Shown here one piece after another: positions 14,169-55,327 of a stretch of DNA of 64,000 bases; the first letter of the stretch is position 1, and every line of letters starts with the position of its first letter. The stretch lies in NCBI RefSeq assembly GCF_009914755.1, contig NC_060939.1; one strand, 5' to 3'. The notes under the pieces are model-generated. The model saw nothing but the letters and a program-made list of their open reading frames with translations. It made no database searches and was not told where the DNA came from. Both the position numbers and the translations under genes were made by a program. The DNA is from the human T2T-CHM13v2.0 reference genome, Homo sapiens.

Positions 14169-14819
14169 TGTGTTAGTCCATTTGAGCTATTATAAAGGAA
14201 TACCTGAGGCTGGGTAATTTATAAAGGAAAGAGGTAATTGGCTCATCGTTCTGCAGGCTGTACAAGCATGGTGCTGGCATCTGCTCAGCTTCTGTAGAGG
14301 CCTCAGGGAGCTTTTACTCATGACGGAGGCTAAGTGGGAGCAGACAGTCAGTCACATGGCAAGAAAAGTAGTGAGAGAGAGAGAGGGGAGGTGCCACAAA
14401 CTTTTAAACAACGAGATCTATCACTTCTTGGCCTTTTAGCTAAGATCAAGTGTAGTATCTGTTTTTATCAGTTTAATATATGATACATCTTCTATCCAAG
14501 GACAATATATTAAATGGATTTTTGGAGCAGAGAGATGGAATAGAAGCTTGCTCCATCCACTCCATGCATCGACCTGGTATTGCAGTACCTCCAGGAACAG
14601 TGCACCCCCTCGAGGTATTAAAAAAATAAAATAAAATAAACAACCAGATCTCAGGTGAACTCAGAGCGAGAACTCACTCATCACCAAGGGGATGACGCAA
14701 AGCCATTCATAAGGGATCCATCCCAATGACCTAAACACCTCCCACCATGTCCTGTCGGTAACACTGGGAATTCCATTTCAACATGAGGTTTGGAAGGGAC
14801 AAACATCCAAACCATGCTA
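14169..14819 (-). mobile_element. MSTB-type MaLR solo LTR interrupted by U2 retrocopy
   Basis: TGTGTTAGTCCATTTG...AAGGAATACCTGAGGCTGGGTAATTTATAAAG; LTR resumes at CAACCAGATCTCAGGTGAACTC and ends GGGACAAACATCCAAACCATGCTA. Confidence 0.92.
14420..14637 (+). pseudogene. Full-length U2 snRNA processed pseudogene (187-nt body, short 3' extension, A-rich tail)
   Basis: ATCACTTCTTGGCCTTTTAGCTAAGATCAAGTGTAGTATCTG...GGAACAGTGCACC; about 13 differences from the recalled human U2, 7 at CpGs; TSD AAACAACGAGATCT (14406-14419) / AAACAACCAGATCT (14638-14651). Confidence 0.97.
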
Positions 14820-51720: not shown

Positions 51721-53272
51721 TATCCCTAAACTTAAGGAGTTATTATAATAATCAAATTACACTAGGTATATGAAAGAATTTATCAGTGGAAAATCCCTGA
51801 GTGTTATTGACAATGTCTTAACCATTATTGGAAGTCACTCCCTTTCCTGGGTGCCTCTCTGTGCTTCTGTATCCTTAATACAAGGATTGTTGTGAACTGT
51901 GTGTCAGTCTTCATGCTGCATGTGAATTCACAGAAGAGAACGTGGGTACTTTTGTTTTGCAAAGTTCCAGGTCTGCCCTGGGGAAAGGGGCTGGCCACGT
52001 CTCTTCTGTTAAGTTCCCTCACAGATATAATCCAAGTTCTAGATAAAAGATCAGCTGGCAAGGTCAAGCTGACCGGAACCATGTCACAAAACAAAGTGCA
52101 GAACACGTCTTCTTTTCTTTATAAGGTAATTGACAAACCAGTAAATGTTGTAACTAATCTAACTTGGACTTGAGAAACTATTGGGTTTCTATTCCTTCAT
52201 TAATATCTCTATGGTCTTTGAGATGATTGCACAAAAAGTGACTTTAATAGGAAACAGGGACCAGTGATGTATTATTTATGTCATGCTAACCTTCCAGTAT
52301 TAAAGATTAAAAATTTAGGAGAGGAAAAGTCACATCACAGGACTCAGAAGTGGATTTTAATGGTTCAGGACAGGCCTACAAGGCGTGTTGCTAAACTTTG
52401 AGAAACGAGGGGAAGAGAAACATAACTTGATGGAAATTCTTTTAAATACTTCTGATTTGGCTGTGAATAAGAAAAAAATAAAAATGCATCAGTTAATGAA
52501 GAATGAACTGTGGAAGCTGTATTTTAAAATTCTTCATTAAAGGCATGTCAGCAGGGTGAGATTAAATTACCATTTACTGAGTGCCTATCAGGAGCTAAAA
52601 GATTTTGTTAATGATTTCTGGTGTAAAATTAAAAAGAAACATGTGAAATAGATATTGTTATTCTCAGGCTACAGATGCCAAACTGAAGCCCTAACATAAA
52701 AATCTATCAAACAAAACAAAAAACAACAACAACAGCAATAGCTTTGTAACAGATGGCCTAGCACTCTTTAGCCAAGTTCCCTCCTCTGCCTGAGTTAGCT
52801 CCTTTGCTTCTGGTCACAACTGTGTCCTTGATTGTGAGTATCAACAGTCTAAAGAAATGCATGCTGAAGAAAGACCCAAGGGTACTGAGCAAATCATTCT
52901 ACCCTAAATGATTAAGTTATTTCCAGATACAAGATCCTCTTCCTTATTCTTTAACTGTATCTCATTAGCAACTGGCTCATACACTGGACTCGAGTATGAA
53001 GTGGTCTGATTTGTACGGTGATGTGCCTGGGGCATAGTAGGTGATTAGCAAGCTTTATAATGTTGAACCTTTACGATTTCATCTATCTACCTTCAAAAAT
53101 ATGGATTTTAAATATACGTACACATTTTGATAAGTTGGAAAAATAACATATCAGAAGAAAAATATATCATTCTGACTCTGATAAACACTTTTAATTTTCT
53201 TGTATATTCTTCATCTATACTTTATGTGTATGTGTTTGGATCATAAAACTAGCATTAGACAGCACTGCACAG

Positions 53273-53337
53273 TCAGTCAGTAGAGCATGGGACTCTTAAT
53301 CCCAGGGTCGTGGGTTCAAGCCCCACGTTGGGCGCCA
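53273..53337 (+). pseudogene. DNA copy of mature tRNA-Lys(CUU) nt 12-76 including CCA; its last 18 nt are the LTR primer-binding site
   Basis: TCAGTCAGTAGAGCATGGGACTCTTAATCCCAGGGTCGTGGGTTCAAGCCCCACGTTGGGCGCCA; anticodon CTT at 53295-53297; only two CpG-type differences from the recalled tRNA-Lys-CTT; 5' acceptor strand missing. Confidence 0.95.
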
Positions 53338-53339
53338 GA

Positions 53340-54299
53340 TGAAGGGGGCCAGCCCTTCCACACCTGTGGGTGTTTCTTGTCAGGTGGGACAAGAGACTGA
53401 GAAAAGAAATAAGAGACAGAGACAAAGTATATAGAAAGAACAGTGGGCCCAGGGTACCAGCACTCAGCATATGGAGGACCCATGCCGGCACTGATCTCTG
53501 AGTTCCCTCAGTATTTATTGATCATTATCTCTGCTATCTCGGAGAGGGGGACGTGGCAGGACAATAGGGTAATAGTGGGGAGAGAGTCAGCAGGAAAACA
53601 TGTGAGCAAAGATCTCTGTGTCATAAATAAGTTTAAGGAAAGGTGATGTGTTTTGATGTGCACATACACAAACATCTCAGTGCATTAAAGAGCAGTATTA
53701 CCGCCAGCACATCTCACCTCCAGCCCTAAGGCGGTTTTCTCCTATCTCAGTAAATAGAACATACAATCGGGTTTTACACCGAGACATTCTATTCCCAGGG
53801 ACGAGCAGGAGACAGATGCCTTCCTCTTATCTCAACTGCAAAGAGGCCTTCCTCTTTTACTAATCCTCCTCAGACCCTTTATGGGTATTGGGCTGGGGGA
53901 CAGTCAGGTCTTTCCCTTCCCATGAGGCCATATCTCAGGCTATCACATGGGGAGAAACCTTGGACAATACCTGGCTTTCCTAGGCAGAGGCCCCTGCGGT
54001 CTTCCATAGTGTATTGTGTCCCTGGGTACTTGAGATTAGAGAATGCTGATGACTTTTAACAAGCATGCTGCCTTCAAGCACTTTTTTAACAAAGCACATC
54101 CTGCACAGCCCTAAATCCATTAAACCTTGAGTCAACACAGCACATGCCTCTGCAAGCACAGGGTTGGGGCAAGGGTTACAGATTAACAGCATCTCAAGTC
54201 AGAAGAATTTCTCTTAGTACAGAACAAATGGAGTCTCTTATGTCTACTTCTTTCTACGTAGACACAGTAACAGTCTGATCTCTCTTTCTTTTCCCCACA
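53340..54299 (-). mobile_element. HERV-K(HML-2) LTR, LTR5B-like, full length (960 bp)
   Basis: Minus strand starts TGTGGGGAAAAGAAAGAGAGATCAGACTGTTACTGTGTCT, contains GATCAATAAATACTGAGGGAACTCAGAG, ends GGCTGGCCCCCTTCA, followed by TC and PBS TGGCGCCCAACGTGGGGC. Confidence 0.96.
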
Positions 54300-55327
54300 G
54301 TGGCTATCTTCACATAGTCTATCATAAACATTTACCCATCTCATTAGATGATTTTTCATGGAGTGATTGTTAGCATCAGCAAGTCATTCTGCTTTTTCCA
54401 TAAAATTTAATGTTAAGAACTTCACATTGTTTTCATTGTTTTCAAATTTGCCAATGTTATATTTAGTGGTTGGGAAACTTTCACTTTTTTAACTTACTTC
54501 ACATCTAAGATTTCAAACACTTGATATATGTAACCAACTTAATAATGGATACCTAAATATTAATGCCAATATTAATAACTATTAAGTATTAATTGAAAAG
54601 AAAATATTACAACAATATGTAAAACCTGTCAGCCCTGGTGAATCCTCCTCTGTCCTTTTTTAAAGATAACTATCATGGTGAAGTCTGTGCAATCAGTCTG
54701 TGTCTGTTTCCTGAGGTTTTGTACACATGGTTGGATTCATTAATTACATACACCATTATTTTAGATTTTTTTAAAGTTATACACATATTGTCATATTGTA
54801 TATATCCTTTCTTTTGGCCAATTTTTTAAAGATTTGTATATATCAATACATGTCAACACATTCAATTCATTTAGCACATTTTAACTGTGAAAATTATGTT
54901 ATGGTATAAATTTTCCTACCAAATAATGTTGAACATCTTTTGGCCTTTTTGAGAATAAGTGTGAACATTTCTGAAGTGTAGGCAGCAAGAAGCAACAATG
55001 TGAGGCAATGAAGTACATTCTTCTTCAACTTTGATAGGTGTTACCCAAAGACTTTCTATATCAATTTAGCCAATTTCCATTCCACAAACAAAACATGAAT
55101 TGTTCCTTCCAACAAATTCTTTGCCGACACCTGGCATTATTTGACATTAAGTTTTGTCATTTTTTATTGTAGGGCTTTCTCATCTTATCCTCTTAAGCAT
55201 CTTTCTCGTCTTGTACTGTGTCACACACATTTACTGATGGCTATTATTTTATTGGCAGAGCAGACTTCTCCTCCTCTATGCTTCTTTTTATGTTTCAGAA
55301 GTATTTTGCCTACTTCCAGAACTCCAG

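What the first reader, a model, noticed from the sequence alone, without database searches (positions are those of the whole stretch)
53273..54299. HERV-K LTR5B fused to a near-complete copy of its own tRNA-Lys(CUU) primer: probable fossil reverse-transcription intermediate
Seen: on the minus strand a complete 960-bp HML-2 LTR (TG...CA) is followed by TC and the 18-nt PBS (53320-53337, tRNA nt 59-76). Complementarity to tRNA-Lys(CUU) then continues for 47 more nt, past A58 (53319), through the T arm, anticodon arm and D loop to nt 12. There is no gag leader and no second LTR. The flanks (...GCACAG | GTGGCT...) show no TSD. Established: recombinational solo LTRs carry no PBS and keep a 5-6-bp TSD; proviruses carry only 18 nt of primer complement because plus-strand strong-stop synthesis halts at m1A58; CCA is not encoded in human tRNA genes. 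Inference: plus-strand strong-stop DNA read through position 58 (hypomodified primer or RT bypass), failed second-strand transfer, and entered the germ line with a precise U3 end and a repair-joined tRNA end. This would be a recombination-independent route to solo-like LTRs and a direct record of the primer isodecoder (GGGACTCTTAATCCC anticodon arm). I cannot tell whether this locus or class has already been described.
Basis: partly seen in the sequence, partly recalled or inferred. Interest (0 to 1): 0.92.

Follow-up and report, generated by a model that had tools for sequence, protein, structure and literature searches.

The report
HERV-K LTR fused to its tRNA primer
A lone retroviral LTR on human chromosome 15 is joined to a DNA copy of most of the lysine tRNA that primed its reverse transcription, a fossil of a copying accident that recurs at about ten other places in the same genome.

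Summary
On the minus strand there is a 960-bp HERV-K-type LTR (54299-53340). It is followed by TC, the 18-nt PBS (53337-53320) and 47 more nt of tRNA-Lys(CUU) complement (to 53273, tRNA nt 12). Over tRNA nt 12-73, 60 of 62 positions match real tRNA-Lys-CTT genes, and both differences are CpG G>A changes. CCA is present here and is not encoded in the three genes I checked. There is no TSD, no second LTR and no leader.

The locus is not unique. The same genome holds at least ten more LTR-spacer-CCA-tRNA read-through loci. They span three LTR families, two lysine tRNAs and two Lys-CTT isodecoders, and end at tRNA nt 1-3, 6, 11-14 or 27.
- Two loci regained a U5 end and have 5-6-bp TSDs, as integrase makes.
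- One locus that ends in tRNA has a 54-bp TSD.
- One sits in an Alu whose two halves are contiguous.
- Position 58 carries a transversion in 3 of 10 Lys-CTT loci (P about 2e-4).
- All 16 ordinary LTR+PBS copies leave the tRNA complement after 18 nt.

Best reading: plus-strand strong-stop DNA read through A58 and was inserted as a dead-end LTR-tRNA unit. The error is known for HIV-1. I found no description of germ-line ERV fossils of it.

The parts
53340..54299 (-). Complete HERV-K-type (betaretrovirus-like, LTR5-group) LTR, U3-R-U5, 960 nt, TGTGGGG...CCCCCTTCA
   Evidence: One search gives the sequence. One search aligns positions 1-960 to the 5' LTRs of ordinary copies. Searches show that the closest LTR with a PBS (L008) is followed by a Gag_p10 ORF.
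53338..53339 (-). TC dinucleotide between the U5 terminal CA and the PBS, the two bases that integrase would remove from a free U5 end
   Evidence: The same spacer (TC, or TT, CC, TA) lies between U5 and the PBS in 16 of 16 ordinary copies. That integrase removes these two bases is established knowledge, not tested here.
53320..53337 (-). 18-nt primer-binding site, the complement of tRNA-Lys(CUU) nt 59-76 including the non-encoded CCA (53335-53337 on the + strand)
   Evidence: It is identical to the PBS of L008, L009, L010 and L026 (18 of 18).
53273..53319 (-). 47 further nt of tRNA complement (nt 58 down to nt 12): T arm, variable loop, anticodon arm with anticodon CTT, D arm and loop
   Evidence: 2 differences from gene L011 over nt 12-73, both CpG G>A. 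The anticodon stem is of the L011/L018 isodecoder type.
53273..53337 (+). The same stretch read as tRNA sense: tRNA-Lys(CUU) nt 12-76. It is not a gene, because nt 1-11 are absent and CCA is present.
   Evidence: ARAGORN: no gene; Rfam tRNA, 31 bits.
53012..53272 (.). Flank on the tRNA side: single-copy, no leader or gag, no TSD
   Evidence: (the only match is the locus itself).
54300..54560 (.). Flank on the U3 side: single-copy, no polypurine tract or env, no TSD
   Evidence: (the only match is the locus itself).

Best explanation
The element is an inert fossil of an aberrant reverse-transcription intermediate of an HERV-K (HML-2-type) virus.

Proposed sequence of events:
1. Plus-strand DNA was primed at the polypurine tract and copied U3-R-U5 from the minus strand.
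2. It then copied the tRNA-Lys(CUU) primer still attached to that strand. It did not stop after 18 nt at position 58 but ran on to tRNA nt 12.
3. With 47 non-viral bases at its 3' end, this plus-strand strong-stop DNA could not make the second strand transfer.
4. The LTR-length duplex (exact U3 end on one side, tRNA copy on the other) entered germ-line DNA without a U5 attachment end on the right. The route was therefore non-canonical: host end-joining, possibly with integrase acting on the U3 end alone.

Shown: the architecture, the primer origin (CCA, spacer), the isodecoder, the recurrence and independence of such events, and that LTR+tRNA units were inserted as such at sister loci.

Inferred: the order of events, the joining pathway at this locus, and whether the primer lacked m1A58.
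For: Anatomy of the locus and primer origin.

Ordinary copies carry only 18 nt. In all 16 LTR+PBS loci, 3-8 of the next 20 nt match the tRNA complement, and 15 of the 16 continue with a shared leader. In one search, 18 of 41 places end at the PBS boundary.

Recurrence. In one search, 7 of 41 places carry an LTR5-type U5 plus the tRNA beyond A58: the window, chr18 L002, chr5 L003, chr1 L004/L005 (tandem), chr19 L006 and chr16 L007. add chr19 L078 (only about 19 nt of U5) and a second LTR family (L035, L046, L080). add L096, which has tRNA-Lys(UUU) nt 27-76 with CCA next to the U5 of a third LTR family.

Independence. tRNA end points are nt 1-3 (4 loci), 6 (2), 11-14 (4) and 27 (1). Two Lys-CTT isodecoders are recorded, 3 loci of the L011 type and 7 of the L038 type. 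The six LTR5-type LTRs need at least 4 changes on the LTR tree.

Insertion as a unit. L006 has a 54-bp TSD with 2 mismatches around LTR+tRNA (0 of 300 shuffles do as well). L035 splits an Alu whose halves abut within about 1 nt.

Deferred transfer with integrase. In L002 the tRNA copy is followed by the last 54 nt of U5 and the unit has a 6-bp TSD, CTTCCC. In L004/L005 the tRNA copy is followed by LTR positions 584-960 and the unit has a 5-bp TSD, AAGTG.

Mark of bypass of m1A58. There are transversions at position 58 in 3 of 10 Lys-CTT loci, against 7 in 580 elsewhere (P 2e-4). L096 also has A58>T.

[quoted passage not shown] HIV-1 proviruses with 7-54 nt of tRNA-Lys3 after the PBS are described (PMC12657518, passages).
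Against: - No empty site is available for this locus. Its junctions show neither a TSD nor provable microhomology, so the joining route is inferred by analogy with sister loci.
- A58 is unchanged here, so there is no direct mark of bypass at this copy.
- The U3 end is exact (TG), with no extra terminal dinucleotide. This fits integrase processing better than simple end-joining of an unprocessed end and leaves the pathway mixed or unclear.
- The set of ordinary LTRs in the tree is small and was picked by similarity to this U5 (19 rows).
- The genome searches scored only the best 40 candidates each. Counts are lower bounds, and one true member (L006) was missed by one search.
Confidence: 0.75

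Rival explanations
1. The same read-through error occurred, but the product first integrated as a 'mini-provirus'. After copying the tRNA, the plus strand jumped to a downstream viral acceptor and regained a U5 end, and integrase inserted the product with a 5-6-bp TSD. A later genomic deletion then removed the 3' viral end, the right-hand TSD copy and perhaps tRNA nt 1-11.
For: Two sister loci have exactly this form with intact TSDs: L002 and L004/L005. HIV-1 examples are all of this kind (PMC12657518, passages). The window lacks any TSD, as a one-sided deletion would leave it.
Against: It needs an extra event whose breakpoint falls inside the 76-nt tRNA copy. Four other loci (L003, L006, L007, L035) also end in tRNA with no viral 3' end. 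For L006 and L035 the flanks prove that nothing more was inserted. The nt 12 end point falls in the nt 11-14 cluster shared by three other loci.
Confidence: 0.17
2. An LTR or provirus landed beside, or recombined with, a tRNA-Lys gene or pseudogene that was already there. On this view the tRNA is genomic and not primer-derived.
For: tRNA genes and pseudogenes are common. The Rfam tRNA model scores the stretch above its gathering threshold (31 against 29 bits).
Against: CCA is present, whereas the representative tRNA-Lys-CTT genes have CGG, CTG and ACT at that place and the other gene loci printed also lack CCA there. The junction is exactly U5-CA + TC + CCA, as in every ordinary copy. tRNA nt 1-11 are missing and ARAGORN finds no gene. 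The same junction recurs at ten unlinked loci.
Confidence: 0.02
3. LINE-1 machinery retro-copied a chimeric RNA or RNA-DNA hybrid, as in tRNA retropseudogenes or template-switch chimeras.
For: tRNA copies with CCA followed by A-runs do exist in this genome (L079, L081, L084, L086).
Against: There is no poly(A), no TSD and no A-rich target at the junctions. A full U3 is present, and LTR transcripts lack the 5' U3 (established knowledge). The tRNA is antisense to the LTR with the primer junction intact. The TSD of L006 does not start at an A-rich site.
Confidence: 0.02
4. The locus is one copy of a single founder chimera spread by segmental duplication or as a small repeat family, and does not record an event of its own.
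For: L004 and L005 are a local tandem duplication of one unit.
Against: Both flanks of the window element are single-copy. Isodecoder, end point and LTR lineage differ among the loci.
Confidence: 0.01

Closest known systems
HIV-1 defective proviruses from 'deferred second-strand transfer' (Commun Biol 2025, PMC12657518; passages read)
   Same: The layout is 5' LTR, then PBS, then 7-54 further nt of the primer tRNA copied past position 58. The cause given is plus-strand strong-stop DNA that ignores the m1A58 stop. Changes at position 58 are reported in some copies.
   Different: The HIV-1 cases are somatic, and all continue into downstream viral sequence and a 3' LTR. The window element is germ-line and tens of millions of years old (age from the literature on this LTR group, not measured here). 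It ends in the tRNA copy with no viral 3' end and no TSD. The primer is tRNA-Lys(CUU), not Lys3.
Recombinational solo LTR
   Same: A single complete LTR with no internal genes.
   Different: A recombinational solo LTR has no PBS and keeps the 5-6-bp TSD. This element has a PBS plus 47 nt of tRNA and no TSD.
In-vitro read-through of unmodified primer tRNA (m1A58 needed for the plus-strand strong stop; PMC8599865, abstract read)
   Same: The same step of reverse transcription is affected.
   Different: That is a biochemical and cell-culture result for HIV-1. This is a natural genomic record for an HERV-K-type virus.
Strong-stop-DNA model for the origin of tRNA-derived SINEs, and tRNA inserts at retroviral circle junctions (both recalled from the older literature; not retrieved or any other search)
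   Same: The idea that a primer tRNA joined to nascent retroviral cDNA can end up in chromosomal or circular DNA. L078 (whole tRNA + CCA + about 19 nt of U5) looks like such a molecule.
   Different: The SINE model concerns minus-strand strong-stop DNA that later became a mobile family. These loci are single dead-end insertions, mostly with a whole LTR.
LINE-1-mediated tRNA retropseudogenes
   Same: They are copies of mature tRNA that include CCA.
   Different: They carry A-tails and no LTR (L079, L081, L084, L086).

Membership tests
Recombinational solo LTR | The LTR is flanked directly by a 5-6-bp target-site duplication | tested here: not met
   no repeat at the junctions; the best shared 8-mer lies 21-29 nt away and 50 of 300 shuffles do as well.
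Recombinational solo LTR | No PBS or other internal sequence after U5 | tested here: not met
   TC, an 18-nt PBS and 47 nt of tRNA complement follow U5.
Provirus (full or internally deleted) | A second LTR or U5 end and internal or leader sequence downstream of the PBS | tested here: not met
   no other LTR piece in the 64-kb window; the leader shared by 15 of 16 ordinary copies is absent here.
tRNA gene | Complete cloverleaf from nt 1 | tested here: not met
   ARAGORN finds no gene; the nt 1-11 equivalent matches at 5 of 11.
tRNA gene | CCA not encoded | tested here: not met
   CCA is present in the window; genes L011, L038 and L027 have CGG, CTG and ACT.
Read-through plus-strand strong-stop product (deferred second-strand transfer class, PMC12657518) | LTR, then spacer, then PBS, then primer tRNA complement continuing past position 58 | tested here: met
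   47 nt beyond the PBS, 60 of 62 gene-encoded positions identical.
Read-through plus-strand strong-stop product (deferred second-strand transfer class, PMC12657518) | The tRNA insert is followed by downstream viral sequence and a 3' LTR end, integrated with a short TSD | tested here: not met
   Window: host flank follows directly. The feature is met by sister loci L002 and L004/L005.
Read-through plus-strand strong-stop product (deferred second-strand transfer class, PMC12657518) | Misincorporation at position 58 as a mark of m1A bypass | tested here: inconclusive
   The window keeps A58. Three of 10 Lys-CTT loci have a transversion there, and L096 has A58>T.
HERV-K (HML-2) LTR5B subfamily | Subfamily-diagnostic insertions and deletions relative to the LTR5Hs and LTR5A consensus sequences (PMC3228705, methods passage) | not testable with these tools
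   No repeat library or consensus was available. Shown only: an LTR5-group LTR, with the nearest PBS-bearing relative followed by Gag_p10.
LINE-1-mediated retrocopy | Poly(A) or A-rich 3' end and a 7-20-bp TSD at an A-rich target | tested here: not met

The most novel reading that the evidence does not exclude
Dead-end reverse-transcription intermediates of HERV-K-type viruses (an LTR plus a read-through copy of the primer tRNA) were repeatedly fixed in the primate germ line. This makes them a small, previously unlisted class of 'pseudo-solo LTRs' that arise without LTR-LTR recombination and partly without integrase. Each one is a molecular snapshot of the actual primer in an ancestral germ cell. 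It records which tRNA-Lys isodecoder was used (both Lys-CTT types, and Lys-TTT for another family). It also records whether position 58 forced a misincorporation and where the reverse transcriptase finally stopped (clusters at nt 1-3, 6 and 11-14).
Probability: 0.6. Interest if true: 0.7.

Novelty: new variant of a known kind. Interest (0 to 1): 0.6.

Why it matters
- These elements are counted as ordinary solo LTRs in HML-2 catalogues, which take recombination as their origin (PMC3228705, passages). They show a second origin and should be separated out when solo-to-provirus ratios are used to estimate recombination rates.
- They give the only direct record of which tRNA molecule primed ancient HERV-K replication. 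The 18-nt PBS cannot tell isodecoders apart, but the 47-76-nt copies can. Primer isodecoder choice is a current question for HTLV-1 (PMC11251516, title and abstract seen in a search listing).
- They carry a natural read-out of m1A58 bypass by an extinct reverse transcriptase.
- The same error documented in HIV-1 reservoirs has left heritable traces for tens of millions of years.
- The locus itself has no evident cellular function.

Tried and rejected
1. Whole tRNA present? The Rfam alignment suggested a tRNA copy reaching nt 1 with D-loop deletions. Ungapped comparison with real genes shows an intact D loop with one CpG change, and homology ends at nt 12. Rejected.

2. Rebuilding the empty site from paralogues. 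Both 261-nt flanks match only themselves, so this failed. No primate genomes are held, so the orthologue test could not be run.

3. One search used a query that ran into an Alu and returned only Alu copies.

4. L003 and L007 looked by eye as if they had degenerate TSDs (about 17 bp; CTTTTT). Neither passed the shuffle test (279 of 300 and 73 of 300 shuffles do as well). Not claimed.

5. Generality to tRNA-His, the primer I recall for the HERV-H group. Of 23 places I looked at 3. Two are CCA plus A-tail retrocopies and one has no CCA. None has an LTR. Four chr1 places matching nt 11-66 were not examined.

6. tRNA-Lys-TTT. Of 37 places, 10 were examined. One (L096) is an LTR chimera. Three (L090, L092, L093) share a gene trailer with no CCA.

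7. Second LTR family. The search is swamped by ordinary LTR copies (1092 candidates, 40 scored). Only L046 reappeared, so no full count is possible.

9. Literature. Searches found no paper describing germ-line ERV LTR-tRNA read-through loci. The library lacks most subscription-journal papers, so earlier description cannot be excluded. No supplements were opened.

Full report
**What is in the window**

Read on the minus strand, a 960-nt LTR runs from TGTGGGG at 54299 to CCCCCTTCA at 53340. It is followed by TC (53339-53338), by the 18-nt primer-binding site (53337-53320), and by sequence that stays complementary to a lysine tRNA down to 53273.

I fetched real tRNA-Lys-CTT genes from the same assembly; ARAGORN confirms them. 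Compared without gaps, tRNA nt 12-73 differ from genes L011 and L018 at two positions only, G18>A and G57>A, both at CpG sites. The next three bases are CCA. The three representative genes have CGG, CTG and ACT there.

The 11 bases where nt 1-11 would lie match at 5 of 11, with several transversions, which is chance level. The Rfam hit that extends to 53267 over-reaches, and ARAGORN calls no gene.

- The LTR aligns end to end with the 5' LTRs of ordinary copies.
- Its nearest PBS-bearing relative, L008, continues into an ORF with Pfam Gag_p10 (E 1.4e-23). The family is thus betaretrovirus-like HERV-K.
- The label LTR5B could not be tested.
- There is no other LTR piece in the window and no TSD.
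- Both flanks are single-copy.

**Is the extension part of the family?**

No. In all 16 LTR+PBS loci in hand, the match to the tRNA complement falls to 3-8 of 20 immediately after the 18-nt PBS. Fifteen of the 16 continue with a shared leader. In the first genome search, 18 of 41 places ended at the PBS boundary, 8 were LTR only, 1 was a second partial U5 copy inside L002, 6 were tRNA genes, 7 carried LTR+tRNA beyond position 58, and 1 belonged to another LTR family.

**It is a class**

Six further places have a complete LTR5-type LTR, the spacer, CCA and the tRNA copy past A58:

| Locus | Position |
|---|---|
| L002 | chr18:46.28 Mb |
| L003 | chr5:26.30 Mb |
| L004/L005 | chr1:39.37 Mb, two places forming one tandemly duplicated unit |
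| L006 | chr19:55.01 Mb |
| L007 | chr16:2.95 Mb |

Searches with the tRNA part alone (sequences) add more:
- L078 (chr19:38.12 Mb) has the whole tRNA, CCA, the spacer and only about 19 nt of U5.
- Three loci belong to a second, abundant LTR family: L035 (chr7:98.37 Mb), L046 (chr11:54.70 Mb) and L080 (chr7:12.73 Mb).

A search with a tRNA-Lys-TTT gene adds L096 (chr2:61.65 Mb). It has nt 27-76 plus CCA next to the U5 of a third repeated LTR family, whose ordinary copies match only from the PBS onward.

A limited check with tRNA-His found no LTR chimera (3 of 23 places inspected). All counts are lower bounds, because each search scored at most 40 candidates and one search missed L006.

**The events are independent**

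- tRNA end points are nt 1-3 (L003, L007, L046, L078), nt 6 (L002, L006), nt 11-14 (window 12, L005 11, L035 14, L080 14) and nt 27 (L096).
- Two Lys-CTT isodecoders, which differ by a compensated pair in the anticodon stem, are recorded. The L011 type is in the window, L002 and L003. The L038 type is in the other seven. Each end-point class contains both types.
- On a maximum-likelihood tree of 19 LTRs, the six tRNA-bearing LTRs need at least 4 changes, forced by well-supported branches. The comparison set is small and was chosen by similarity.

**How the units entered the genome**

Two loci regained a viral right end.
- In L002 the tRNA copy (to nt 6) is followed by the last 54 nt of U5, and the whole unit is flanked by CTTCCC.
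- In L004/L005 the copy (to about nt 11, with a 4-nt overlap at the junction) is followed by LTR positions 584-960, and the unit is flanked by AAGTG.
- These are integrase-type insertions of products of a late, misplaced second strand transfer. This is the form described for HIV-1 (PMC12657518, passages: 44 proviruses with 7-54 nt of tRNA-Lys3).

The others, like the window, end in the tRNA copy.
- L006 is bracketed by a 54-bp duplication with 2 mismatches (0 of 300 shuffles do as well).
- L035 interrupts an Alu whose two halves abut to within about one base.
- In these cases exactly LTR+tRNA was inserted, and not by concerted integrase action.

The window has no TSD, and its empty site is not recoverable here. 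It could be a direct capture like L006 and L035. Less likely, it is an L002-like insertion that later lost its right end.

**A mark of the stop site**

I compared the ten Lys-CTT copies with their isodecoder genes over nt 15-73. This gave 27 CpG transitions, 14 other transitions and 10 transversions in 590 sites. Three of the ten transversions fall on A58: L006 to T, L007 to C and L078 to T. The background is 7 in 580, giving P of about 2e-4 for that pre-named site. L096 also reads A58>T.

[quoted passage not shown] The HIV-1 study reports changes at position 58 in 5 of 44 inserts. Some primers therefore carried the modification and were bypassed with an error. The window copy keeps A, so it may reflect an unmodified primer or an error-free bypass, and I cannot tell which.

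**Mechanism (inferred order)**

1. Plus-strand synthesis was primed at the polypurine tract and copied U3-R-U5.
2. It read on into the attached tRNA past position 58 to nt 12.
3. The non-viral 3' tail blocked the second transfer.
4. The LTR-length duplex was joined into a chromosomal break.

The exact TG start of U3 in the window, and in 5 of the 6 other loci whose U3 junction I read (L006 begins CA instead), would fit integrase acting on that end alone. This is not shown.

**Rivals**

- An LTR beside a pre-existing tRNA gene is excluded for practical purposes by the CCA, the exact spacer, the missing nt 1-11 and the recurrence.
- LINE-1 retrocopying is excluded by the lack of an A-tail and TSD and by the presence of a full U3.
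- A single duplicated founder is excluded by the unique flanks.

**Novelty**

The biochemical error and its HIV-1 proviral form are known. Eight full-text searches and passages read in four papers turned up no description of germ-line ERV fossils of this kind or of LTR-plus-tRNA 'pseudo-solo LTRs'. The HML-2 catalogue treats solo LTRs as recombination products (PMC3228705, passages). Older subscription literature is not covered, and I recall related ideas there: the strong-stop-DNA origin of tRNA SINEs and tRNA inserts at circle junctions. I therefore rate this a new variant of a known kind, of moderate to good interest.

Noticed in passing
L012 (G000 chr7:143.07 Mb), locus coordinates 584-1581: A complete LTR5-type LTR with TC and an 18-nt PBS (17 of 18) is followed at once by sequence that is not the shared leader. 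No TSD is obvious. It could be a captured normal-length strong-stop DNA or an internally deleted provirus.
   Followed up: partly
L078 (G000 chr19:38120700-38121000): A whole tRNA-Lys(CUU) copy with CCA, the spacer and only about 19 nt of U5 lies next to non-LTR flank. It looks like a primer tRNA with a very short nascent minus-strand cDNA, or a heavily 5'-truncated LTR-tRNA unit. A58 reads T.
   Followed up: partly
L096 (G000 chr2:61652942-61653065): tRNA-Lys(UUU) nt 27-76 with CCA is joined to the U5 of a third repeated LTR family (99 candidates). Ordinary copies of that family match only from the PBS. A58 reads T. The family name and the LTR's 5' end were not determined.
   Followed up: partly
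L079 (chr1:54.84 Mb), L081 (chr5:168.92 Mb), L084 (chr20:59.12 Mb), L086 (chr1:112.43 Mb): tRNA-Lys or tRNA-His copies that include CCA are followed, after 0-30 nt, by A-runs. They look like LINE-1-type retrocopies of mature tRNAs and are not LTR chimeras.
   Followed up: no
L090 (chr17:61.66 Mb), L092 (chr3:15.21 Mb), L093 (chr19:52.53 Mb): Three dispersed tRNA-Lys-TTT copies share the same roughly 45-nt 3' trailer, without CCA, ending in an A-rich run. This suggests retrocopies of one gene's read-through transcript.
   Followed up: no
L004/L005 (G000 chr1:39.37 Mb): The unit 'LTR positions 584-960 + TC + tRNA copy' is tandemly duplicated (period 459 bp). The two tRNA copies and their near flanks are identical over the stretches printed, so the duplication is later and local.
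   Followed up: partly
window 14420-14607: The hub's annotation lists a U2 snRNA pseudogene (RNU2-3P) here. I did not examine it.
   Followed up: no
L046 (G000 chr11:54.69 Mb), locus coordinates about 200-900: The 5'-truncated LTR of this LTR-tRNA unit abuts tandem repeats of about 171 bp, which I take to be satellite by eye.
   Followed up: no
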